From NCBI GenBank assembly GCA_965112155.1, contig OZ218111.1: 64,000 nucleotides of DNA; one strand, given 5' to 3'. Under the pieces are notes generated by a model. It searched no databases. It saw only the letters and a list, made by a program, of their open reading frames with translations, and was not told where the DNA came from. Origin of the DNA: Podarcis liolepis. Its lineage: Eukaryota. Each line of letters opens with the position of its first letter. The stretch's first letter is position 1. Below, one piece after another: positions 25,620 to 43,700 of this stretch. The translations under genes were made by a program, and so were the position numbers.

Positions 25620-26610
25620 GCCCCCCGAATCGCCCGCAAACTCAGGCACGGAGGCGGGAGAGTACAGCGCTTCCTGCGCGAACGGTCTCCTGGCAGACAT
25701 AGAGCTCCCGCTCCCCCCCCCCCCGCCCTCCATTGGCGCGGAAGAAGAGGAGACCAGGCGAGGCGGAGGTTGGATGGTAAAAGCGGCCGGCAGGCAAAGA
25801 GTTAATCAGCGCCTCCGCCCCTCTTCCCGCTGGCGCACCCAGCAAGCAGAAGAAGCCCGCAGAAGGGGCGGGGCCGCTCCGCCCTCACTTCCGGACGACA
25901 GGGGGCGGAGCCACATCGCCGCCGCACATGCGCTCTCGGAGAGCCTGCCGGGACAGCGGCCCGGAGGGGACGCCTTTCGAGAGCGGACCTTCCGGCGCGC
26001 AGCCAGGATGGCGGCGGAGGGCTCCTGCGAGCTGCCGGTGGTGCCGGCGGCAGGGCTTGGCCTGTCCGGGGCTCCCTCCGCCTCCTGCCGGCGCTGCAGC
26101 AGCAGCTCCAGTTCCTCGTCGTCGTCCTTCTCCTCGCCTTCGTCGTCGTCCTCGTCGTCGTGCGGGGGCTGCCTCGCTCCCCCGGCCCCTCCCGTCGCGG
26201 GCGGCGTGCCCGGGAAATGGGTCCGGCTGAACGTGGGCGGCACCTGCTTCCTCACCACCCGGCAGACGCTCTGCAGGGACCCCAAAAGCTTCCTTTTCCG
26301 CCTGTGCCAGGCCGACCCGGACCTCGACTCCGACAAGGTGAGGGGGTGCCGCCGCCGCCGCATTCTGCAGGTGCTCCGGGGACAGGCCGGGCGAGGACCC
26401 CATAGCTTGGCCGCCCCACCGCGGGCACTAGGCTGGAGGGCCGCCGCTTTGCTGCCCCGGTTCCTCCCGGAGTGCCGGGCTCTGCGTGAGAAAGCCGCTC
26501 AGGCCACCTGTGTCAGCGGCTCCGTCGTTACCGTGAAAGAGGCGCCCACCGTCAGGTTCCCGCTCTTTTCTGTTCGGTTACCCGGGAGGTTGGCCGCCTT
26601 TTCTCCCGCA
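25620..26610 (+). promoter_or_regulatory. CpG island / promoter of KCTD5
   Basis: CpG-dense; GC boxes (GGGGCGGGG), ETS CACTTCCGG (~25886), NRF1-like GCACATGCGC (~25925). Confidence 0.85.
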
Positions 26611-29600: not shown

Positions 29601-32600
29601 TCCATCAGGATCTGGCCATCAGAAATGGGCTGTGTACAGCAACAAGAAGCTGATTTTTGTAGTGAGTAACCAGAGGAGTGAACTATAATGATAAGACAAA
29701 GGTGGTAAAGGGTTCCATTTGTAAAAAAAAAAAAGATGTATGAAGATCAGTGCTTCTTCATTCCCAGTTTTTTTGCACCACAAGCATCACGTAGTATTAG
29801 TTTTACAATTTTATAATGTTCATTGTCTTTTGATAGTGAATTTGGGGCATTTTCATGTAAAAATGTTGTCTGATGTTTCTCTGTATTCCTATGGGCATTT
29901 ATTAAAAATACTTATATACCACTATTTCATAGGAAAAAAATCAAAGCAGTTTACAAAGCTCAAATGAATAGGCCACAAACACGACCTGAGCACAGCAGCA
30001 GCACTCTCCCTTTTGGGTTTCCCTCCAACTGAGCTTCAGAGACATAGCACCTCTGACAGTGAAGGCGGAGCATAGCCATTGTGGCTAGTAGCCATTGGTT
30101 GCCATATCTTCCATGAATTTCTCCGATCCTTTTTAAAAGCCGTTCAAGTTGGTGGTCATCACTACTTCTTGCAGGAGTAAATTCTGTAGTTTAACTATGT
30201 GCTGTGTGAAGAAGTCCTTCCTTTTTTCTTTTTAAAAAATCCTAGTGGAAATTCAGTTCTTGTGATTTCCTTTGTTTTAGTGTTGTTTTTGCATTTTCAC
30301 TTTCATTTATTATTATTGTCACAACATCCATATTTCTATATCAAGGAAAAATGAATGAAAAGTCCTTCGTTTTGTCTGTTCTAAATCTTCAAAAGTTCAA
30401 CCTGTTGTGTGGCCCTGAGTCTTGAGGGAGGGAGAGGTTTCTGTACACCATGCATAATTTTATACACTTCTGCCATGTCCCCCCCAACTCATTTTCCCCC
30501 TCTAAATATTATAAATTGCAAATATTGAAGCCAGTGTAATAAAAACAAATAATATCAGGGCAAATTTAATAATTGGAACCACCCCTATGGGAAAGCACAA
30601 TAACAAAATTGTCATTCAGGAAAATGCTGTGAGCCTTGATTGGATGGTGAATTTTTGTGTTCAGCTCATAAAAATAATGTGAATTCAAAGGGCTCTGGCA
30701 ACCTTCTACAAAATCATATTTCTGTACCGGTGTGTAACAAAATACCTTTTAAGCCCCTTGGATGTTTTATTAAACAGCCACTCTTCTTGACAGGAGGAGG
30801 AGATTTTTGCTGATTTCCTGTTCGGTTCCTTTTGCCTTCCAAAAATCTGCTCCAGATGGTTGAGGGACCCACCAAAACCTTTGGGTAGGGGAGATTGCTG
30901 GGGTCTGCAGGGAGAATTGGAGAAAGCCCTCTTCCTGCAATGGATACCTCAACTCAGTCAGAGCGCATTTTATGAACTGTAGGGACCATTCATTACATTT
31001 CTAAGCCTGGATCTAACCCAGAGATTTGAGGGCTTTATTGCTTTGGTTGCAATTTTAGGTTTATTATTTAGTATAAAGATCATAACTACTGGTTGAATAA
31101 AATGGATGGTTCTCATTTGGATAAACGTTATTAAGCTTTTCTTACCCCACATTAATATTGATTGTCATTTGAGCCAAATTATTAATTTTCACAATCCCTT
31201 GCGGTAATTGATTAGAGATTAGAAACTAGCTGAGTAGTAGCTCTGTTTCACAATTAAGACCTCCATACTGAAGCGCTGATTATTCATTAATGCGGTGCAC
31301 TGAATCCATGGTGGAAGCTTCTGGTTTAGGATGAGGGTATGTCAGGGTTGGAATGTCAGGATCTCTGTGGGGTCTCACACTAATTTAATCTGGTATTTTA
31401 ATTTAGTTGGCTGATCTGGGAATAGGATGGCTTAAGTGTGATAAGACAATTTCTATATAAACAAGTAACACACATATTTTAATTAGGATGAAACAGGTGC
31501 CTACTTAATAGACAGAGATCCAACCTACTTTGGACCGGTGTTGAATTATCTCCGACACGGGAAACTGGTTATCAATAAAGACCTCGCAGAGGAAGGTATG
31601 TTTTGCTGTTTAGGAAGACAGCTTTAATGTTTGATCACATCTGTGAAAAATCACTTTGGGTGTACAGTAATTGGTTTCACATATGCAAAGCATGGCAGCC
31701 TGTTTGGGCTGGGCTAGTTTGTAGCATTGCTCTGCAACTTGCAGTGGCCTTCAGATCTTGAGACCTGAATGATCCTTTAGATACCAGGTTCCAGCACCTG
31801 AAGTGCTGTGAGGTCACTGTTTTGGGGAGGTTGTTGGCTGGTGCGTGACCTTCCTGGAACACTCTCCTTACTCCTGGGCTTTCTCTTTCTGCTTTGGTCT
31901 TGGAGCAGAGGCCCTGCCTCATCCTGACCAGGGCAGTGCTTCAGAGGGACAGTCTGCTGCTTGGCCATGCAATGCCTCTCAGGGCCTGTTTGTGACACAG
32001 ACTTTCTCACAAGTAGCTGGAGTTTTATGAGGCCCTCTTTTGACTTTGTGTTCCCCTCCAATCAGGTGTGCTTGAAGAAGCTGAATTCTACAACATCACA
32101 TCCTTAATCAAACTTGTAAAGGACAAAATAAGGGAACGAGACAGCAAAATCTCACAGGTAGGACCTGCTAGTTTTTTAAAAAATTGATTTGTTTTTGAGG
32201 TAGCCTTGGCTTGACTTCATTTCAGAATGTGTGGCTGTGTTTGGTGCCCAAACTGAGGGAATTATGAGAAGTGGCTTCTGGTGGTATCAGATGCCCCTTT
32301 TCCTTCCGTGAGTGAAATGTTTGTGCTTGTGGCAATGCCAAAAGGGAGGAGGGCAGCAGAGAGATCTCAGCAGAGGCTGAGACAAGTGGCTTTTTTGCAC
32401 TCTGGAGCTCAGTGATAACGGAGAAGGGACTCGTTTGGAAGACATGATGGTTGAAACCAGTGGCCATTCTTGGCCTGCTTCATCTTTCAGCTGTCTCTCT
32501 GTGTTTTTCACCAAAGGTGCCAGTCAAGCACGTTTACAGGGTGCTGCAGTGCCAGGAAGAGGAGTTGACTCAGATGGTCTCCACCATGTCTGATGGCTGG

Positions 32601-35600
32601 AAATTTGAGCAGGTAAGAGAACGGGAAGCAAACACTTCAATCTTTCAAGGACCATACAAACAAACAAAAAAGCAGGCAAGAGGAGTGTGAGGGTTGGAAT
32701 AATTGTGGGTGTTGTGGGCTTGGGTCCTGGAATGGTCAGGAAACTCAGACAAATGTTTGTACTTTTACAGCAGTTTGCCTGGTTGCTCAAAGTGCGTCAC
32801 ATATTAACTCTAGTTGTTTCTTAAAGTAACTCTGTAGAGAAGGACAATATCATTATTTCCCTACTGGGAATAAGCCTTTGGGTGTGCCACTGAGCTTGTG
32901 CCTTAGGAGATGCTTGATTTGCAGCTTATACTCTCAGCCCGAGTTGCACCTTCTTGGCATTTCCATGGGAAATCACACAGCAGGCACGAAGCACTTCATT
33001 CCTCCAGCACTGTGCCATGTGGCCATTTCAAGGCAAAGATCCATTTGCTCCACTTTTTATGTAGAGAGCTCTTGGAAACATAGTCCTCTGGGATTAACTC
33101 TGGTGGTGATATGAACACCGTTACACACAAAAAACAGCTAAAAATTAGAAATTCTTGTAACTAGGCTCTAAACTGTAGCCATGTAGTTATGTTTGTCCAC
33201 CAAGATGCCATGTCAGTGCCAGTGCTTCAGATCCTGCCATCAGTATTGCAGTACTGATCAGATCACTGGTATTTGTTTGTACAAGCACCACAGCTCTCTG
33301 TGGTGGAAGATTCTCAGTTAATGGAGATTTGGAGAGCAGGAGGAATCAAGCAAAATCTTTTTGGCTCAGAACTGTCCCTCAACAGGCACTAGCTCTCCAA
33401 GAGCAAAGAAGAGTGTGGAATCCCCACAACTCTGTCTCTGGGCCTGTATTTTGTACATCCATTGTGGATGGCTCTAGGCCTGCAGTCTTCCTTCTGTGCA
33501 ACATTCTAGGAGTTTCACAGCTGTGTGTTTACACAGTCAGTGCTCTGTGTGGTCAGGATTGCTTACACTCCCTGTGAAACACTGACGCCTCCTATCTGCA
33601 CAATGCCACACTCTCCTGCCTGAGCATGAATTATAGGAAGGGACAGGGGCCACTCTTAATGTTAGATGCCCCTTGTGGGAACAGGAAGGAGAGAGCTCCA
33701 CCTTTATTTAATAGCCCAGAATGTTGACTGTCAGAGCTTTGGTTGTAATCCCTTATTAAGTTCTGTCTGAAGCACAAGAACAGCCCCCCTCAGTTGTCTC
33801 TCTTTCCCACCTCCAGCTAGTCAACATTGGATCTTCCTATAACTATGGGAATGAAGACCAGGCCGAATTCCTTTGTGTTGTTTCCAAGGAGCTGCACAAC
33901 ACCCCTTATGGCACGGCCAGTGAGCCCAGCGAAAAGGCAAAGGTGAGTCATCTTCAGGGTGGAGCAAGGCCCAGCTGCTGCCTTCCTCTGCCATCAAAGG
34001 TTGTTTGCCAGTCGCTACTAAGAAAGGAGCTTGCTTGGGTATCCTCTGCCCACCCTTTCTCAGGTGTCCAAGCACAAGACACACATGAGCACACTGAGCA
34101 GTTGTGGAAAAAGGAGGCTCCAACATCACACCTCTTATGCAGGAGCAACAGTAAACCAGCCTTGGGTGTGATAGAGCACTGAGGTGCCTTCATAAGCCAT
34201 TTTAGGCTTCTGTCCATTTCATTGCTGTTAAACTCAACTGTATGAAGATACCCTGCCCCATGCAAAAAGAATCTCTAATGGTTATGGATGTCTAATCATC
34301 AAACACCCAACTCCCAAAGAGCAGCTAAACCTTTTTCTGGAAAATGACAGGTTCTATTCTAGGTGTGCCTGCATGTGGGTGCAACCCAAAAAACACAAAC
34401 GCACCCACCAACACGGAAACCTTCATTTATTGCAACCAAAAAATAAAGGCATATAAATCACATTTCTGTGTCAAGGCTAATTTATGTATGCCAACACAGG
34501 CATGCCTTGTTGGCCTGAATATAAGTCACACTTTCCCCCCAAATTCCGACCGTGAAAAGTGTGGCTTATATTCGCGACCTTATGGTATGCAGCCAGGAGT
34601 GCGGGGCAAACAGCGGCAGGAATGCGGCAAAGTAGTGCTCGCCCTGCACGTAGTTCCCTGTCCTCTCCCCCAAGACCAGGAAGGGAGAGAATGAGGAAGG
34701 GGAAAGGCCGCTGGCAGTGCAGCGCAGCTCCCCCCTGCCCAGTATGCAACCAGAAGCAGCAAGGATGGGAGCAGCATATATTCAAGTATATTTTCTTCCC
34801 CCCCCCCTCCAATTTTAAAGGTGCATCTTATATTTGGGTGCAGCTTATATTCGGGCCAATACGGTATATAGACTTGCAGGTGCTTTTGATTATGATTCTA
34901 ACACACCCATAACTCTAAGCTGGAGAATTTAAGATGCCCTGTGTTGGGAGAAGGAAAGGTAGGGTATCCCATGACCGGGGTTCTCTTTCTCTCCAGTTTC
35001 CAACTTGAGGTACTCAAGGTTTCATGGCCTTAAATCCAGCAAAAGCTTTCCTTGTGAGTGCAGGGTGAAAGAGGCAAAGTGGAGCTCTGAGGAATTCCCC
35101 CCACCTACACAATTCAAAGACTCGCTACTGAAATACACTTTTAGTGAAACTTGATCAATAATGTCAATGATATTCTTACTTTCGAAAAAGTGGTGAGAGT
35201 CCGGTGTGTGGCTAATATCTCCTGTCCTGGGGCCGACGTGGAGCCCAATTCTGGCTGTCTTAGCCCCCCTGAGTTAAACAGCCCCTTGATCTACTCCTAG
35301 CTTTTCCATAAATCATAGCGAGAAATTTCCCTCTGGCCTGAGAAAGCACTCTGCCGACAGGACTATAATTAGAGGCCCTGCCCTTGGTTGCCAGTGTTAT
35401 TGTCTGGCTGCTCTGTTGCGGTTAAAATCAGCATGCCTGCGTTCATGTCATGTGGCATTCAGTAGAGACAAAAGGATCAGAATTCCCGGGGATGAGGGAG
35501 AGAAAGGCAAAGGGGCATATGTTCCAAGATGCATCAGGCCTATGCCAGGCTACAGTCGACTGAGATGAACCAAGGTTCTGGTTTCATACACCATCCTTGC

Positions 35601-38600
35601 ATAATTGTTAATTAACACAGTTGTGCCATGGGCATAAGTTAATGCCAGCCCTCTGCACATTTTTCATTGAGTTTTCCACATAAAATACAATGAAAGCCAA
35701 ACTAATCAAAAGAAGATAAATAGGCACACAAAAGAAGACAATAAAGAAGTAGAAAGAGATGAGGAGGGGAAAAAACCAAGGTTCTCTGTCATAATTATAT
35801 CTTGACCTTTATTACACACACAAACGGGTGAACCCTCCCAGCTCTTACATGGGAGCTTCCCCCTCTTCCCCCAGCCTCCCTCCCTAGGAGATCCTCTCTG
35901 CGCTGAGCCCTTCATCTTCCATCCATCTGCACCTTTTTAAATGAAGCTGCTGCTGCTGCTGTTGTCCAAGAAGCTGGCAAACAGTGTGCCAGGCAGCTTG
36001 GAAGCAAATGTGCGATTTCTGTCTCACTGTCCTATTTCACTCTCTACCTTATGCTTTCCCTTGGCCTTTGGCTTTGTAAACAGACAGCCAGATTGTAGAG
36101 TGATTGTTTCTGAAGGTGCAAATGATGTGCCAGATGCTATAGTGATGTTCAGAAAGATCTAAGCTTCAAGATCCTTGCATGAACTCCTGAATTAATGAAG
36201 AGGGCACAGATAGAAGGCAAGGTCTTTTGTGTTCATCTGGCACTCTTGCATTGTGTGGCATTTGCATGCTAGAGAGAAGTGGCCATGCTGGGATTTGTGC
36301 CTGTTGAGAAGGAGGAAGATGATGTTGGAGTTGGGTGAATTAGTAAAGGTGCAGGGCAGAGCCCACAGACACGAGGAAGCCCAGCTTCTTGCATCTTCAC
36401 TAATGGCCAGTCGTAGTTCAACAAGACCTCTGGCACACGAGGTGGAATCCAGGTGTCCTTGCAGGCATGAGTGCTCTCCAGCTCACACCCTGCAGAGCAG
36501 CTGCTAACCAGCTAAGAAACTGTTTGGATGTTTATCAGAAAAGGTTGTATGGGGGTGGGGTGATGGTGGCTGGGACACAGGGCAAAGGGACAGGCATCTC
36601 TCTGAGTTCTTTTGAAGAGAGAGGTGGCTCTTATGCACATCCTTAAGAGTTTGCTTTTAAATATATCAACAACAAAAACCTCGGGCTCCCATGCCCAATT
36701 AAATCTTGATTAACCAAAAAAAGTTGGTTGGGGGAAGTTAGACAAAAGGATGACGGAATATGGAATTACAGCATCTGAGCCAGACACCCTGAATGTTACT
36801 AAACTGCTTTCACAAGAAAGCACATAAATTAGAAATACTGTTTTCGGTCTGTGGACGAAAGTTAAATTTCCAGTGTTTCCAGGCTAGTAATGTTTAGCCA
36901 CCAAAAGGTGGGATTTAACCATAAGCTGTTTGCCTCTTCTGGATGTGAAACCTATGGAATGGTAACTAGTGACTTACTCTAGTGCAAGGTGAGGCACTCC
37001 GTTTTCAACACACCCACCTATTGCAGCCCTGTGCGCCATGTCCCTTGCTGTGCCAGAGGGTCCTTGACACTGGATATGGGTGTTTTGCTGCTGCTTGGCA
37101 GCTTGACAGCTTTTTTCAGTGGTGGTTCGCCCTCTTCACACTGTGGTGGCTTTTTCCTTGCGTTGTAGCTGCTCTTCCAGCGATTGACTGGCTGGCTGCA
37201 CTGTTGGATTGCTTCTGTGATCAACTCGCAGAAGACTCTTCTGGGTCACCCTTCACAATTCAGGGGCTGGCTTGGTCAGAAGTCTCCTGCTAAGACAAAT
37301 CCAGGCCAGACTTTTCCGGATCTCTTTCCTGGATCTCCTTGTGTAGGGCAGCTGTTGAAGTGAATGGGCCAGTTGTCCAAAGATCACCAAGCAGAAGCCT
37401 TGAATCCTCTCTCAGGCAGCCTGGGGACGTTTGTACTTTACTCACCTTGCACTCTTTTCTTTTCCTTTCCTTCCTGCTCTTTGCACTTGCTTCATGAAAC
37501 TCAGAGTGAAGACGAAGAGACGGATTACGATATGAATGACTCAGATTAAGTGTGAATGCCATGGTGAGCACTAGGACTTCACCCACCTGCCTGTCCTCCC
37601 TCTGGCCTCTCCCACTGGTGCATCTTGTTTTGTGTTTGTAGTTGCTGCCTTGACCCCGTTGCCGGGTAGCCGTAGGCCCCTAGACTGCCTAGTGGTCCAC
37701 TTGTGTGTTGGCTCCTTTACTTCCTGCTGCTGTTGGTCCTCTTCAGAGGAAATGTGTTTTTGTGGCTCTTCTCACAGGGAGGAAAGCAAGACTCCACCAG
37801 GGAACCCATCTGCTTTTCACTTTAGAAAACCAGGGGAAGGTAGGGGCCAAAAGGTCTGAGCCAGGTTGCCTTCCTATGATGGCTACAGACTTTGGGTTGC
37901 TTGCTCTTTTCTTTTTTTAACTAGTACGCCTTCAGGAATTCCGGATTGCATGCCATGAAACATTGTCTTCAATCAATTGCTTTCTCTTTGAGTTTGGGTG
38001 CATCTCATCTGCTATGAGAGCAGGGGAAACAAATTGGAAAGAACTCTGTGTTTGTGGAGAAAGTGGATAGAGTTTCTTTCTCCCTCCTAATACTAGAATT
38101 CAGAGGGGTCATCAAGGAAGCTGCATGCTGGAAGATTTGGGATAGAGAAAAGGAAGTGCTTCCTAACACAGTGCACACTCCTGCAAGATGATGGCTTTGA
38201 AAGAGGATTAGACAGATTTATAGAGGAGGAGGAGGAGACTGTAGATAGCTATGGGGCCCATAGCTAGTATTGGAGGCAGTTGTTGGGGAGTGTAAGTGGG
38301 CAGATGGTGCACCTGTTGCACCGATATGCTGCTTGTGAGCTTCACAGTGGTTGACCACTGTAATAACAGGATAGTGGACTAGATCCAGTAGGTTCATTCC
38401 AAGAGGAGTCTCCTGCTCAAAAATAATCTTGGTTCTTTTCTTTCTGGAGGGAACAGCCTCATGTTCAAAAAGAGCAGAAGGATTGTCACCATGGCTGCCA
38501 GAGCTGTAGTAGAACGTTGGTCTGGTTCTTTTGCTGAGTGAGCAGACTACAAGTGTGTACACCTTCCCTGTTTTGCCATGATGAAAGGAGAAAGAGGTGG

Positions 38601-40787
38601 GGAGAAGGGTGCCAGGAGTCTGAGTCAGGAGGTGTGAACTTTTCCAATGGCGGCTGTACCTGAAAGCAGCACTGGGATGGGCTGGAAATTCCCTGTGCTT
38701 CACACACCCGTAGTGTGCCCCTCCTCCAAGTATATAAAGCCCTGCATTACTGTATGAGGGACTGGCCTTGAGCTACTTAGTGGATTCCACAATCAAGGTC
38801 CTGAGTTGTTTTTAATGCAGCTGATGTGTTGTTGACTCTTATTTCCCTAGCGACAATCTAGTAAAAGCAAGGCATGTTGTGTTTTTCCCTGCTTGCCCTG
38901 AGTGGGGATTTGTCCCTGTTCAAGGCCAACACTATCCATTTTCATCAGTGCTGATGCAAAGAGGAGAAACAGGTGAGGATTTTACAGAGAAGGTCCCTGG
39001 AAATTCTTTGGATGAGGAAGAGGCATAGTGGAAACTGCAGGTGTTGCTGGCCAAATGACGCAGTGCTGAAACATCAACACACACTGTGTTGGCTACAAGT
39101 GATATTTTGCCCTGAGATGTTTTGGGTTCCCAACATGCCAGTGCTATTAAGCAGATAAGGGTCTTTAAAAATAATGACGATTCATGTTATTATTTGAACT
39201 ATCTTATCCTTGCTTGGTGAAGCCAAGGAGTGAGGCTCCTTGATTCTCTGGCAGAGCCACTGCACTGAGTTCTCCTTAGTCCTTGTCCTCCTCAAGCAAC
39301 ACAAATAGTGGCCTGGAATGTGGCTCTTTGAGTGCCCTTCCCAGGTCCTTCAGTTGAGGGCTGAAAAGTACCTCTGATCTGTACTGCACATCCCCAGGCG
39401 AGGAGGAAGGCAGCAGCTTGTGGGCAACCAAGGCCACCTGTGAAGTGTCAGAGTGCACAGCCTGCCACTGCAACACCTTTATTTCCTGTTCTTGGCCAAG
39501 GTGTCTCCAAAGTGACTTGGAGTTTTATGGTGGTTTCTTCTGGTAGTTGATGTCATCACCACCCAGGTTCCAGGCAGGGAGGAGGCAGCCAAAAGGGTTC
39601 TCCAACCCTGATACAGGGCAAGATACTTAATTGCTGGAAAAATCCACGAAGCCAGGATATTTACATATCGTTCCTTCAGAATGTTAAGTTATACTATGGA
39701 ATTATTAAATCTCAGTAACTAGATCCCAATTGCTGAAAATTTGATAGAGGGACCTTACAATTGTCTAAAAATGTGTTACACATTTCTGCCTCAAAGAGGA
39801 GAGTGAAGTGTACCCCCTCCCAATTAAAGTGCATAATCCTTCAGTATTGTATATACGCAAACTAAGACTGATGACTGGACACACCAGAAAGTGGGGTATT
39901 TGTACATCTTTCTTTGGAAAAGGCAGACAGGCTGTACTGTATTAGAAACTTTAAATCTAGCACACTCGCTACTGAAGACATCCTCATTGCTTGAAAAACA
40001 GTAAAATAAGCACTAAAGGGAGGGCATCAAAACTGGAGCAAAGAACCCAGGCAGGCATGGTTCTGCAGCCTCAGGTTGTGATCTACAGCTGTTGTTCATT
40101 TGAATTAACCTTTAGGAGGGGAGGGGGATTTCCAGTGGCTGCACCCCTACTTTCAGATTGCATATGTCATACTAATAAATGCTATAGAGTCATAGAATTG
40201 TAGAGTTGGAAATGGATCTCCAAGGGTCATTTAGTCCAACTCCCTGCAATGCAGGAATCACAGCTGAAAAATCCCTGACAGATGGCCATCCAACCTCTGC
40301 TTGAAAACCTCCAAGGAAGAAGAGCCCACACCTTCCGAGGGAGTCCATTCTACTCTCAAACACTTCTTACCACTAACACTTAGTGAGAACATAATCAGCA
40401 AAGCGAGCTGTTGATCGCATAAATGGCCCATTTTTTAATCCACAACTGTTCTTTTCAAACTGGGAGCTGGACCACTCACATACACTGGCCTAGCTGTACA
40501 ACCTAGCTAGTTTTGTAGGGAATGGGTGAGTCTGGCCTGTTGGCAGTTCCCTTAATTAACTTCCTATGTTTTGAGTAGCAGCTGACTGCCTAGTTCACCA
40601 TCATGTGCCAAGGTGTCTTGCGTCAGAGAACAAAATCAGCTTGTTTGCCTGTTTTAAGGTTTTGCCTTCAAGAATGCCGGAGTCTTTCCACTGTGTGAGT
40701 CTTGCTGGAGAACCTTACCATGCAGAATCTCACCACTTGTTGTTTGTTTCCTTCCAGATCTTGCAGGAGCGAGGTTCAAGGATGTAA
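26008..40787 (+). CDS. KCTD5: BTB/POZ domain-containing protein KCTD5 (CUL3 adaptor), 6 coding exons, 260 aa
   Basis: Exons: 26008-26337, 31487-31595, 32066-32157, 32517-32612, 33817-33942, 40758-40787 (783 nt). Peptides: [86 protein letters not shown], ending ILQERGSRM*. Adjacent to PDPK1 as in human. Confidence 0.97.
27465..27590. mobile_element. degraded short hAT-derived MITE
   Basis: GGACTCTGACTTCCATCATCC...GGGGGTTGGAGTCCAACGACATCTG pattern; related copies at ~5950-6036 and ~27995-28078. Confidence 0.6.
30010..30500 (-). mobile_element. CR1 LINE 3' fragment interrupted by a small insertion
   Basis: CATAGCCATTGTGGCTAGTAGCCATTG...TTTAAAAGCCGTTCAAGTTGG...GTGTGAAGAAGTCCTTCC; same family at ~57340-57540. 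Confidence 0.7.
34505..34864. mobile_element. pogo-like MITE, same TIR family as 10206-10718
   Basis: TTGGCCTGAATATAAG ... GCAGCTTATATTCGGGCCAATACGG(TA). Confidence 0.8.
37505..37563 (+). CDS. KCTD5: candidate KCTD5 cassette exon encoding alternative acidic C-terminus [14 protein letters not shown]
   Basis: Branch-like TACTCAC and long polypyrimidine tract, CAG acceptor at 37502-37504, phase 0 matching exon 5, TAA at 37547-37549, donor ATG|GTGAGC at 37564. Confidence 0.6.
40183..40371 (-). mobile_element. CR1 LINE 3' end
   Basis: CATAGAATTGTAGAGTTGGAA...GTCCAACTCCCTGCAATGCAGGA...CCATCCAACCTCTGCTTGAAAACCTCCAAGGAAG. Confidence 0.8.
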
Positions 40788-43700
40788 CTGTGCCCCAGTA
40801 TTGAATGCTGACAAGTTTTCCTTTGCATTGCCACACGAAGAGGCTTGGCACCAAGAGGATGTCGCTTGTTCAGACCATTTCTGTAGTTCTGGATTTTGAA
40901 CCCTGAAGGTGGTGCTGCAGCTGGAGCTGGCTGCTTGCAGATGCCTGCCTTCAGCAGCAAGAGGGGTTGTGTTGGCTCTGGTGCCCGGTTGTGCTGATCT
41001 TAATCCCATGGAAAGAAGATTTGACTTCACTCTATGCTTTCCTTCCGAAGAGATATAGCGATGCTTTGCTGTTTGTAGGGAAACAATTTGGGTTTTAATA
41101 ATTGTAGGCAGTTCAAGGTCAACATACTTGGTGCTATGAATAAATTACAGCCCACATGTGGGCACACATCCTTAAGCAGCTCCAGTTGACTGTGGCGGCT
41201 GCTGTACATTCCTTGGGGATCTATTGTAAGAATGCACTACCCCAGACTAAGGGAGGGGTGCATCTTCATCCCCCTCCTGACCCTGCTTACTTCAGTAGCC
41301 AGAGGGTATTCTCTTCTTGGGAAGAAGGTCTTATTTTGCCCACATCTCTAGGGAAGCCTTCCTCTCCAGGTAACTTGCTCCTGCAAAGGTTAACCTCCAA
41401 TTTTAGCTACACTTTAGGATTGAAGCCCCAGTTAAACAAAAATAATACGGCAAATACCTTGCCTTGCACACATGTGTGCACACACGAAAACACACACACA
41501 CACCAAAGTTGCGTTCTTCGTTTTTAGAAATGCCTGCAAGTATTGCTACCCCCGTGGACTCACAGCACTGAAGGTAGACATGGGGGTTGAGTCTTCATGG
41601 GTGCTCCATCATGAAGGCTGGGAATGAGAATCTCTGTGCTCAAAAGCATCAGAGTTTGTGCAGCTGAAGGCAGGAATTATTGTGATTCTTTAACAGATGT
41701 TTACAGTCATTTCTACATTCTCTTATCTATGCAGTTCCTTCTGATGTTTGGCAAGTACTGTCAATAACACTTGTGGTTTCATTGAGAGAGGCTTGTGGTA
41801 AATGTGAAGAAACACAACTGGAGCTTTTTAGTGTACTGTGTTTAAATGAAACCATTAGCATGTCTTTTGAAAATAGGTTTAAAGGAGTATATACAGATCT
41901 CTCTACTTCATAGAGCACAGAGAGGAGCCCTTGCTTGTCTGAGGCTCTCTTAACATGCTACCTATATTTTAACTTTCATTAAGCAACTCACAGAAGCTGT
42001 GTGTATACACACCCCTTCCTTTTCCATTCAGATGTGTGGAGTCCTCACAATCTTGAAGCATCCCTTGTCTGCCTGCATTTTTGATCTGGTTTTTGGCAAA
42101 CCTTTTCTGCCCAGTAGATCAGCAAGTGGGCCATTTGTCTTTTGCCATGGAGACTGGTCTGCACAGAAAGTTGCAAGGCCCTCCTCAACATTGAGTAATC
42201 CGTTTGTCTTTTTTAAGATGTTAGCATTGAAATGAATTTACTAAAATGTAATTCTTCTGAAGGGTGAAATGTTTCTACTTTTATACTTTTTTAGGCATCT
42301 GTGTTTGATTACCGTAAAGCGAACGCCAATGTGCTAAGAGATCACATTTCGTGTACGTAGAAAGAAATGTTACTGCGAGTGTGTCTGCGTGTGCATTTGT
42401 GTGTGCACGCGCACATATATGCAGATGCAAAGATGGCTCTTGAATTGGCTGAACAGGCCTTGTTCTCCTTCAGGCCCCACCGTTACTGTGACGCATTCTG
42501 CCAGGGCAGCCTGAGTGACTGACTCGAAAGGCCTCCATCTCCAAACAGCCTTTCCTTAAAGGTGGTGCACATGCCTGTCCAGAAACTGCCTTTGAATGTT
42601 TTTGCTGTAAGTAGCAAAGGATTTGACTGACACAAATTTCAGGCTTGAGGGGGGGCAGCAGCAAAACATGGTGAGTGGAAGGAGGTGGAGCACAGAAGCA
42701 GCCACTCTGTCCATCAAGTGGCCAGTGAACATGTTTGCTGCTTTGGGGTGGGATTTCCCACCTTGCTGCCACTGTCCCCTTATGTCCTTGGAGGAGGGGA
42801 TTTTTGATGTTCCTCCTGTTCCCCCTCTGACTTTAAAGCCAGAAAGCATCAGGAGACACTTTGGAAGGGGCTGAAGCCAGCATCTGTCAGGGTGATGATT
42901 TTGGCTGCAGGCAAGGTTTTCTCTCTGCATTGGTTTGGCTTCTTACTGAACGCAGAAAAAGTTTTAGCATGTTGAACAGTATGAAATTTAAGTTGCATCC
43001 TAGGATTTAAACCTTGCAAGTGTGGAATCCTTTTGTATTCTTCATGATTGTGGAATGTGGTCTGTGGTATAAAGCTTAGCATGTTGAGAACCTCAGCTTC
43101 CATTGTTGGCTTAAGAAAAAATACAGGTTTCTTGCCCTCGTGATGGGTAATGTAGGCAGTGTGAGGAGAGCTCAGAAAGCAAGTGGGTGCCAGACTGGGC
43201 TTTCCTATTCTTTGTGGCTCTACTTCTGTCTCCCAGAACTGCCACCTCAGGCCTTTTATTCTCTCCTTTTCCCTTTGTTACTTGTCTGTAGGCTCCTGAA
43301 ACTTGGAAGCCAGGTATCTTTTAAAAATTAGGGGAAGTATTTAAATTGGCACTGCAGAAGATCACTTTCTTTGGTACAAATTTTAGATTGTACCAAAAAC
43401 CCTATACCATGAAGTGTAGAGGACAGCAGGTAAAGGGCTACCCAGGTGCCTTCTGCTTCTTTGCTAAGGTTCTTTAAGGGGAGAGAACAGGTGCTCCTTT
43501 CAGCCACTTGCCACTTTCCTCACTTCAGTGGGTTAGTGTCTCTATGCATTATGCAAATTACATCCCCCCCTTGGAGAACTGGATAGATTTCAGCAGCTTA
43601 AAAAGGCAAACTTTCCCATTGCCTGTGGGGCCCTCCTGTCTCTGGACTCTGAAATACTAAAGTGGAGACAGACAACTTTTGTTGCACTGCTCAGCTGTAG

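What the first reader, a model, noticed from the sequence alone, without database searches (positions are those of the whole stretch)
37505..37563. NMD-escaping cassette exon that would give KCTD5 an acidic C-terminal tail
Seen: the last KCTD5 intron contains a branch-like TACTCAC, a ~40-nt pyrimidine tract, a CAG acceptor, an in-phase frame [17 protein letters not shown] and a good donor (ATG|GTGAGC) 14 nt after the stop. An RBFOX motif TGCATG lies at 37947. Established: stops less than ~50 nt upstream of the last exon junction escape EJC-dependent NMD. Inference: inclusion replaces the basic tail ILQERGSRM with an acidic tail resembling CK2 sites, on a pentameric CUL3 adaptor whose C-terminal domain binds substrates such as G-beta-gamma.
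Basis: partly seen in the sequence, partly recalled or inferred. Interest (0 to 1): 0.7.

Follow-up and report, generated by a model that had tools for sequence, protein, structure and literature searches.

The report
Photoreceptor exon flips KCTD5 tail charge
This small exon is real and conserved from sharks to mammals, and its likely mouse, human and chicken counterparts are already catalogued as retina-specific; it swaps the positively charged end of the protein-degradation adaptor KCTD5 for a negatively charged one, which would weaken its grip on G-protein subunits and might spare the light-sensing G protein from destruction.

Summary
The 59-nt exon is as described, and it is not chance. 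Its 14-residue acidic tail ends annotated KCTD5 isoforms of sharks, ray-finned fish, a frog, lizards, turtles, birds and placental mammals (44 records, 17 distinct tails, all 14 residues, net charge -5 to -8). Published tables list a 59-nt exon of mouse and human KCTD5, and a 47-nt chicken exon, as retina-specific: mouse rods 74% inclusion, brain, muscle and testis under 2%. Six UAG motifs follow the donor, pointing to Musashi rather than RBFOX, although MSI1 overexpression did not induce the human exon. Four RNA runs of unknown tissue listed only the skipping junction, so inclusion in this species is unshown. The exon replaces 9 of the 13 residues of the basic 'switch helix' that binds G-beta's acidic hotspot in cryo-EM; deleting that tail weakens binding about tenfold. 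Best reading: a photoreceptor isoform that likely binds and ubiquitylates free G-beta-gamma less well, possibly sparing transducin. The exon is catalogued; five literature searches naming KCTD5 found no paper with this functional link.

The parts
26008..26337 (+). KCTD5 exon 1, coding part (ATG at 26008; start of the BTB domain)
   Evidence: Translation; Pfam BTB_2 hit; donor AAG|GTGAGG
31487..31595 (+). KCTD5 exon 2
   Evidence: Translation; GT..AG junction reads to exon 3
32066..32157 (+). KCTD5 exon 3
   Evidence: Junction reads on both sides in 4 of 4 runs
32517..32612 (+). KCTD5 exon 4
   Evidence: Junction reads on both sides in 4 of 4 runs
33817..33942 (+). KCTD5 exon 5 (126 nt), ends ...SEPSEKAK; upstream partner of the cassette exon
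   Evidence: Junction reads; same 126-nt length as the mouse exon upstream of the 59-nt retinal exon
37439..37445 (+). Branch-point-like TACTCAC (use inferred)
   Evidence: Sequence
37447..37494 (+). Polypyrimidine tract, 41 of 48 pyrimidines, with CU/UC elements of the PTBP type (binding inferred)
37505..37563 (+). 59-nt cassette exon: 14 codons [17 protein letters not shown] at 37547-37549, then 14 nt of 3' UTR; an internal GT at 37552 could give a 47-nt form with the same protein
   Evidence: peptide conservation; 59-nt mouse and human and 47-nt chicken retina exons
37564..37569 (+). 5' splice site GTGAGC
   Evidence: 7 of 9 consensus positions
37572..37692 (+). Cluster of six UAG motifs (+9, +76, +104, +110, +118, +127): predicted Musashi-binding intronic enhancer
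   Evidence: 6 in 150 nt; P=0.0004 against 5000 dinucleotide shuffles; 4 of 426 non-overlapping 150-nt windows reach 6; the five other KCTD5 donors have 0-3
37947..37952 (+). TGCATG (RBFOX motif), 384 nt downstream; probably incidental
   Evidence: About 13% by chance
40758..42400 (+). Terminal exon: [13 protein letters not shown] (most of the basic switch helix, ending in the weak PTS1-like SRM) and 3' UTR, which runs at least to 42400
   Evidence: 89 reads for junction 33942>40758; continuous coverage with no GT..AG joint listed inside it

Best explanation
The exon is a photoreceptor-enriched cassette exon, likely switched on by Musashi proteins bound to the downstream UAG cluster, whose inclusion is predicted to give a stable mRNA and a KCTD5 that ends in an acidic tail instead of the basic switch helix, and so would bind and ubiquitylate free G-beta-gamma less well, possibly sparing transducin beta-gamma. 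Steps and status: (1) exon anatomy and peptide conservation, shown here (about 0.97). (2) Retina- and photoreceptor-specific inclusion: published for mouse, human and chicken, inferred for this species by orthology (about 0.9). (3) Musashi dependence: reported for mouse, motif-supported here (about 0.7). (4) NMD escape: predicted from a stop 14 nt before the last junction (about 0.9). (5) Loss of the switch-helix contact: inferred from the cryo-EM structure; residues 226-234 of helix 222-234 are replaced and the net charge of the helix region goes from +2 to -7 (about 0.75). (6) Purpose, to limit degradation of G-beta-gamma in cells that release large amounts of it in light: inference only (about 0.4).
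For: Conservation: 44 of 331 fetched proteins end in EKAK plus an acidic tail; 17 distinct tails, all 14 residues, net -5 to -8, only one with a basic residue; 19 records identical to the window's, from birds, turtles, a frog, sturgeon and gar. Tissue: mouse chr17:24053272-24053330 (59 nt) PSI 74 in rods, 17 in olfactory neurons, 3.8 in Purkinje cells, under 2 in the other columns shown; PSI 0.51-0.70 in wild-type against 0-0.14 in photoreceptor-less Aipl1-/- retina, FDR 1.4e-7, lying between a 126-nt exon and the terminal exon as here; human 59 nt, retina 17.1 against 0.12 elsewhere; chicken 47 nt, 19.9 against 0.07. Regulator: UAG cluster; the authors state that the mouse exon is absent after Msi1 knockdown or dominant-negative Msi1 (peer-review file); UAG clusters downstream mark photoreceptor exons. 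Mechanism: the basic switch helix 222-234 binds G-beta D228/D246; all contacts are to G-beta; tail deletion L209* lowers affinity about 10-fold and fails to lower G-beta in knockout cells. Mammalian tails lose the central residues but keep the charge, as expected if charge is what is selected. AlphaFold2 gave a terminal helix for the canonical tail and none for the acidic tail, in low-confidence models.
Against: No inclusion junction was listed in four RNA runs of unknown tissue, against 89 skipping reads. MSI1 overexpression did not induce the human exon in HEK293 or HepG2 (dPSI -0.75 and -0.26); Msi1 loss also makes rods immature-like, so the knockdown effect may be indirect; no Kctd5 row was found in the supplements of two Musashi-knockout papers (one file of the first was not searchable). 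I saw no protein-level evidence for the isoform. The tail is of secondary importance for binding, and a pentamer cannot engage all five helices at once, so mixed pentamers may lose little; K223 and K225 remain. KCTD2 keeps an ILQERGSRM tail with no acidic exon found in its last intron and could cover the loss. Inclusion in whole human and chicken retina is only 17-20%. The near-invariant centre of the tail in non-mammals asks for more than a loss of binding. Orthology to the mouse, human and chicken exons rests on position, length and peptide, not on a DNA alignment. Both structure models have mean pLDDT about 44.
Confidence: 0.58

Rival explanations
1. The acidic tail is a gain of function: a new, possibly CK2-phosphorylated docking motif that recruits a photoreceptor substrate or partner (for example at the cilium) or closes on a basic surface of the ligase itself, with loss of the G-beta contact as a side effect.
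For: The whole 14-mer is identical from gar and sturgeon to birds (19 records); serines 1 and 13 are invariant in 17 of 17 distinct tails. The paralogue KCTD17 also splices an acidic exon at the same intron position, and that isoform family binds trichoplein.
Against: Positions 7-11 differ freely in placental mammals while the charge is kept. The KCTD17 residues needed for trichoplein (242-297) lie beyond its acidic stretch, and the two acidic exons do not align. No partner is known.
Confidence: 0.22
2. The exon works at the RNA level, as a poison or expression-tuning exon that lowers KCTD5 output in photoreceptors; the peptide is incidental.
For: Highly conserved alternative exons that carry a stop codon are often poison exons (own knowledge). 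No protein evidence was seen.
Against: The stop is 14 nt before the last junction and no later intron was seen. Steady-state PSI reaches 74 in rods. Kctd5 mRNA level is the same with and without photoreceptors (log2FC 0.10, FDR 0.78). Substitutions are D/E-conservative and the length is fixed at 14 residues, a pattern of protein-level selection.
Confidence: 0.07
3. The exon serves to remove the C-terminal SRM, a weak peroxisomal targeting signal, and so changes where KCTD5 sits.
For: The last 12 residues of zebrafish Kctd5a took EGFP to peroxisomes, with strong cytosolic background.
Against: Full-length human KCTD5 was cytosolic with no peroxisomal signal detected; any tail would remove SRM, so the conserved acidity is unexplained.
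Confidence: 0.04
4. The exon is intact but no longer used in this lineage.
For: Only the skipping junction was listed in four runs.
Against: Tissues are unknown and non-retinal samples are expected to skip it; the peptide is identical to the ancestral-type tail and both splice sites and the UAG cluster are intact; annotated isoforms with the tail exist in three other lizard genera.
Confidence: 0.05
5. One reading: an RBFOX-activated brain or muscle exon.
For: One TGCATG 384 nt downstream.
Against: Chance level about 13%; mouse brain, muscle and heart PSI under 2; neural PSI 0.04, 0.36 and 0.03 in human, mouse and chicken; RBFOX is absent from photoreceptors.
Confidence: 0.02

Closest known systems
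Mouse Kctd5 exon chr17:24053272-24053330 (VastDB MmuEX0025234), human HsaEX1018507 and chicken GgaEX2015417 (Ling 2020 PMC6952364; Murphy 2016 PMC4991804; Ciampi 2022 PMC9303857; table rows and passages read)
   Same: Same gene; for mouse the same intron, after a 126-nt exon and before the terminal exon; 59 nt in mouse and human; placental isoforms carry a 14-residue acidic tail at the same junction. Almost certainly the orthologue.
   Different: Those papers list it in tables or as an RT-PCR target; in the passages I read they do not discuss its peptide, its conservation to sharks or any function. The chicken exon is 47 nt. Inclusion in the window's species is unshown.
Musashi-dependent photoreceptor-specific exons such as Ttc8/Bbs8 exon 2A (PMC4991804, passages read)
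   Same: Pyrimidine-rich upstream intron, UAG cluster in the first 200 nt downstream, photoreceptor-restricted inclusion in mouse.
   Different: The human KCTD5 exon was not induced by MSI1 overexpression alone; this exon carries a stop codon and exchanges a C-terminus.
KCTD5 switch helix in the CRL3-KCTD5/G-beta-gamma complex (Nguyen 2024 PMC11047111, sections 8 and 12 read; PDB 8U7Z series)
   Same: The skipped isoform of this gene ends in the same [13 protein letters not shown] helix.
   Different: The included isoform replaces helix residues 226-234 by an acidic tail; the paper's main text has no occurrence of 'splice', 'retina' or 'photoreceptor'.
KCTD17 alternative C-termini (Li 2017 PMC5469494, passages and S2 Fig text read)
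   Same: A paralogue that swaps the terminal helix for other exons at the same KAK junction, one of them starting S-T-D/E-E/Q and strongly acidic; this genome has such an exon too.
   Different: Longer, leads into a trichoplein-binding extension, no sequence alignment with the KCTD5 tail; not listed as retina-enriched in the dataset file searched.

Membership tests
KCTD5 (clade E KCTD, CUL3 adaptor) | BTB_2 domain followed by the KCTD5-type C-terminal domain | tested here: met
   Pfam BTB_2; exon 5 peptide 95-98% identical to most named tetrapod KCTD5 proteins against 76-78% to the two paralogous loci of this genome
Cassette exon | Acceptor, donor and frame in place, and a skipping junction used | tested here: met
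   89 skipping reads
Cassette exon | Inclusion junctions in this organism's RNA | tested here: inconclusive
   None listed in 4 of 4 runs of unknown tissue; listing needs 3 reads
Musashi-dependent photoreceptor-specific exons | UAG cluster within about 200 nt downstream of the 5' splice site | tested here: met
   6 UAG within 127 nt, P=0.0004 by shuffle, 4 of 426 windows
Musashi-dependent photoreceptor-specific exons | High inclusion in photoreceptors, near zero elsewhere | not testable with these tools
   Run tissues are not given; published for the mouse, human and chicken exons
Musashi-dependent photoreceptor-specific exons | Lost on Musashi depletion or gained on its overexpression | not testable with these tools
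   Published evidence is mixed: lost on Msi1 knockdown in mouse retina, not gained on MSI1 overexpression in human cell lines
RBFOX-activated neural or muscle exons | Enriched downstream (T)GCATG and inclusion in RBFOX-rich tissues | tested here: not met
   Motif at chance level; published brain and muscle PSI under 2
Poison (NMD-coupled) exons | Stop more than 50-55 nt upstream of the last exon junction | tested here: not met
   14 nt; no later GT..AG joint listed up to 42400
SRRM3/4-dependent retinal microexons (RetMICs) | 27 nt or shorter and induced by SRRM3/4 | tested here: not met
   59 nt; listed as RetLONG; human exon dPSI between -0.5 and +1.3 on SRRM3/4 expression
CK2 substrates | S/T-x-x-D/E consensus, phosphorylated by CK2 | tested here: inconclusive
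   Consensus (recalled) present at Ser1 in 17 of 17 tails; phosphorylation not testable here

The most novel reading that the evidence does not exclude
Since the origin of jawed vertebrates, photoreceptors have used one Musashi-controlled exon to reverse the charge of KCTD5's G-beta-binding helix, turning the ligase that destroys free G-beta-gamma into an attenuated form (or, in mixed pentamers with canonical KCTD5, KCTD2 and KCTD17, a dominant brake), so that transducin beta-gamma released in bright light is recycled rather than degraded. This would be a splicing-set switch on an E3 ligase's substrate affinity, tied directly to vision.
Probability: 0.35. Interest if true: 0.78.

Novelty: already known. 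Interest (0 to 1): 0.55.

Why it matters
The exon is catalogued, but in what I read nobody says what it does. Putting the retina tables next to the 2024 cryo-EM structure gives a precise prediction: the exon removes most of the helix that contacts G-beta's acidic hotspot and puts eight acidic residues in its place, in the cell type with the heaviest G-beta-gamma load (own knowledge). If true, it explains how photoreceptors keep a ubiquitous G-beta-gamma ligase without destroying transducin, gives a molecular function to one of the Musashi-class exons, and names an exon and a UAG element worth reading in unsolved retinal disease. The test is cheap, since the published binding and ubiquitylation assays need only one new construct.

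Tried and rejected
Raw reads of four RNA runs: no inclusion junction listed; tissues unknown, so this is weak evidence either way. The run search listed no indexed holder on record as RNA (no RNA holder listed). A degenerate DNA pattern for the exon found 0 matches in metagenome contigs, so the flanking intron and the UAG cluster could not be compared across species. RBFOX regulation rejected. Poison-exon reading rejected on distance, PSI and substitution pattern. Homology between the KCTD5 exon and the acidic KCTD17 exon: no alignment; only a positional parallel is claimed. No acidic exon was found in the last intron of KCTD2 by the same scan. AlphaFold2 models of both isoforms (Hemicordylus proteins, 20-row alignments) were low confidence, mean pLDDT 44.5 and 43.8, and were not taken to a fold search. 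No complex prediction was run: the main KCTD5/G-beta patch is a solved pair and would pass with either tail. Supplements of two Musashi-knockout papers gave no Kctd5 row. Six of 18 supplementary files of PMC9303857 (among them possibly the zebrafish srrm3 tables), one of PMC4991804, one of PMC9509328 and all figures were not seen and may bear on regulation. The human retina proteogenomic atlas (PMC11450717) was seen only as a search listing; its supplements could hold peptide evidence. The scan's earlier notes had nothing on this gene.
Full report
Observation. After a branch-like TACTCAC (37439-37445) and a tract of 41 pyrimidines in 48 bases, a CAG acceptor opens a 59-nt exon at 37505-37563. 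It reads [18 protein letters not shown] in phase with exon 5, and the stop ends 14 nt before the donor ATG|GTGAGC. The donor matches 7 of 9 consensus positions; the five constitutive donors match 7-9. Of 24 pyrimidine-preceded YAG sites from exon 5 to the terminal acceptor, only this one is followed by more than 3 acidic residues. The gene is KCTD5: BTB_2 in exon 1, exon 5 95-98% identical to most named tetrapod KCTD5 proteins, against 76-78% for the two paralogous loci of this genome. The flanking PDPK1-like and UBE2I-like exons fit; those two names are my reading. The 200 bases around the exon have one match in the genome.

Conservation. Of 331 proteins fetched in two searches and two cluster look-ups (a sample, not a census), 174 end in [13 protein letters not shown] and 44 end in EKAK plus an acidic tail. 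The 44 give 17 distinct tails. All are 14 residues long, with net charge -5 to -8; one contains a basic residue. Nineteen records are identical to the window's tail and come from birds, turtles, the tailed frog, sterlet and gar. One- to four-residue variants occur in two sharks, reedfish, teleosts and three lizard genera (Anolis, Hemicordylus, Heteronotia). Placental mammals (baboon, macaque, dolphins, cats, wild dog, meerkat, sheep, kangaroo rat) keep Ser1, acidic residues 2-5 and Ser13 but change positions 7-11. No marsupial or monotreme record with the tail was among those read. Most records are predicted database isoforms; I did not see their transcript support.

Where it is used. Raw reads of four RNA runs under one species label, tissues not given, showed all constitutive junctions and 89 reads for the skipping junction 33942>40758 (51, 24, 3, 11). 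No inclusion junction was listed; listing needs 3 reads. One run has about 59 aligned bases in the exon's bin with empty neighbouring bins, which is what one inclusion read would leave; this is unverified. Published tables settle the tissue in other species. Ling 2020 (PMC6952364; abstract, passages, part of Results, one supplementary row and peer-review passages seen) gives a 59-nt mouse Kctd5 exon with PSI 74 in rods, 17 in olfactory neurons, 3.8 in Purkinje cells, and under 2 in brain, muscle, heart, testis and the other columns shown; it was validated by RT-PCR. Murphy 2016 (PMC4991804; passages and table rows) gives the same exon PSI 0.51-0.70 in wild-type and 0-0.14 in photoreceptor-less retina, between a 126-nt exon and the terminal exon, as in the window. 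Ciampi 2022 (PMC9303857; passages and rows of two dataset files) lists it as retina-enriched in human (59 nt, 17.1 against 0.12), mouse (50.5 against 0.07) and chicken (47 nt, 19.9 against 0.07). The window has a second GT 2 nt after the stop that would give exactly 47 nt and the same protein; that the chicken uses this site is inference. Orthology rests on gene, intron, length and peptide; no DNA alignment was possible (one search found no other copy).

Regulation. The RBFOX motif is at chance level (about 13%), and RBFOX proteins are absent from photoreceptors. Six UAG motifs lie 9-127 nt after the donor: P=0.0004 against 5000 dinucleotide shuffles, 4 of 426 non-overlapping windows reach 6, and the other five KCTD5 donors have 0-3. 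The 150-nt window was chosen after I had seen the cluster, and a second, equally UAG-rich stretch lies about 0.6 kb further on in the same intron, so the statistic is supportive, not decisive. Downstream UAG clusters are the published mark of Musashi-activated exons, and Ling's reply to reviewers states that the Kctd5 exon is absent after Msi1 knockdown or dominant-negative Msi1 (figure not seen). Against this, MSI1 or SRRM3/4 expression did not induce the human exon in cell lines, Msi1 loss makes rods immature-like, and supplements of two Musashi-knockout papers (PMC9509328, PMC13175383; supplement search only) gave no Kctd5 row. Musashi is thus likely needed but not sufficient; release from PTBP1 on the CU-rich tract is a plausible second input (inference).

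NMD. The stop is 14 nt before the last junction, and no GT..AG joint was listed in the terminal exon up to 42400. The 50-55-nt rule (own knowledge) predicts escape. High steady-state PSI in rods and an unchanged Kctd5 mRNA level with and without photoreceptors agree.

What it does to the protein. In the cryo-EM structure of KCTD5/CUL3/G-beta1-gamma2 (Nguyen 2024, PMC11047111; sections 8 and 12 and passages read), residues 222-234 form a basic switch helix that binds G-beta's acidic hotspot D228/D246. All KCTD5 contacts are with G-beta. Deleting the tail lowers affinity about 10-fold, reduces but does not abolish ubiquitylation, and fails to lower G-beta in knockout cells. By the numbering in Li 2017, exon 5 ends at K225, so the exon replaces 9 of the 13 helix residues, including both arginines. 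Net charge of this segment goes from +2 to -7. AlphaFold2 placed a helix on the canonical tail and none on the acidic one, but both models are poor. The straightforward prediction is loss of the second contact patch, perhaps with repulsion. Transducin beta-gamma translocates out of rod outer segments in bright light with help from phosducin (PMC2151643, passages), and a paper on its ubiquitylation is cited there (title only seen). That rods use G-beta1, cones G-beta3, and that many lizards have cone-rich retinas is my own knowledge; binding of KCTD5 to G-beta3 was not checked. The purpose, sparing transducin, is the least supported step. The tail is secondary, pentamers cannot engage all five helices anyway, KCTD2 has the basic tail and no acidic exon found, and whole-retina inclusion in human and chicken is 17-20%. 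On the other side, KCTD5 co-precipitates with KCTD2 and, more weakly, KCTD17 (PMC10531988, passages), so the isoform could dampen those too.

Rivals. A gain-of-function tail is the main rival: the centre is nearly invariant outside mammals, two serines are invariant everywhere, and KCTD17 uses an acidic exon at the same junction, though without alignable sequence. Removal of the weak peroxisomal signal SRM is possible but poorly supported (PMC8919083, passages). Poison-exon and RBFOX readings fail their tests.

Known or new. The exon is already known as a catalogue entry in three species and as predicted isoforms in many more. Searches for KCTD5 with splicing terms, with photoreceptor and Musashi, with transducin, with retina and photoreceptors and with retina-specific or switch-helix terms listed no paper that studies this isoform's protein or links it to G-beta-gamma; these were judged from listings and abstract starts, and the library lacks most subscription papers. 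The structure paper's main text has no 'splice', 'retina' or 'photoreceptor', and Li 2017 cloned a single KCTD5 transcript from brain. The scan's earlier notes held nothing on it.

Verdict. Observation confirmed; interpretation partly right. A real, ancient, photoreceptor-type exon, already catalogued, with an apparently unreported and easily tested consequence for a G-protein-degrading ligase. Interest 0.55.

Noticed in passing
L005:2036-2173 (G000:C11, KCTD17-like locus): An acidic exon beginning STEEDLEEEE lies in the intron after the KAK codons, the same position as the KCTD5 cassette; it matches the start of the long mouse and human KCTD17 isoforms in kind. No alignment with the KCTD5 tail.
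   Followed up: partly
window 37550-37557: Internal GT (AGT|GTGAAT) two bases after the stop would give a 47-nt exon, the length listed for the chicken retina exon.
   Followed up: partly
window 37272-37638 (depth bin): Run X21 has about 59 aligned bases here with empty neighbouring bins, and X22 about 22; compatible with single inclusion reads below the listing threshold.
   Followed up: no
window 38120-38330: A second UAG-rich stretch (up to 7 in 150 nt) in the same intron; it overlaps a place where repeat-like reads pile up, so it may belong to a repeat.
   Followed up: no
window about 4100-42400 (PDPK1-like gene and KCTD5): Many turtle and bird database proteins are PDPK1-KCTD5 fusions of 619-729 residues, some ending in the acidic tail; read-through transcripts or merged gene models. 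Not checked in this window.
   Followed up: no
window 26008-26200: KCTD5 exon 1 encodes a long serine-rich low-complexity run before the BTB domain, longer than in the other lizard proteins seen.
   Followed up: no
window 40208-40330 and 34500-34860: Interspersed repeats in the last intron draw many off-target reads.
   Followed up: no
Marsupial and shark KCTD5 records (P0024, P0192, P0178): Other annotated isoforms carry about 39-44 extra residues just before exon 5, suggesting a second alternative exon in the C-terminal domain; not looked for in window 32613-33816.
   Followed up: no
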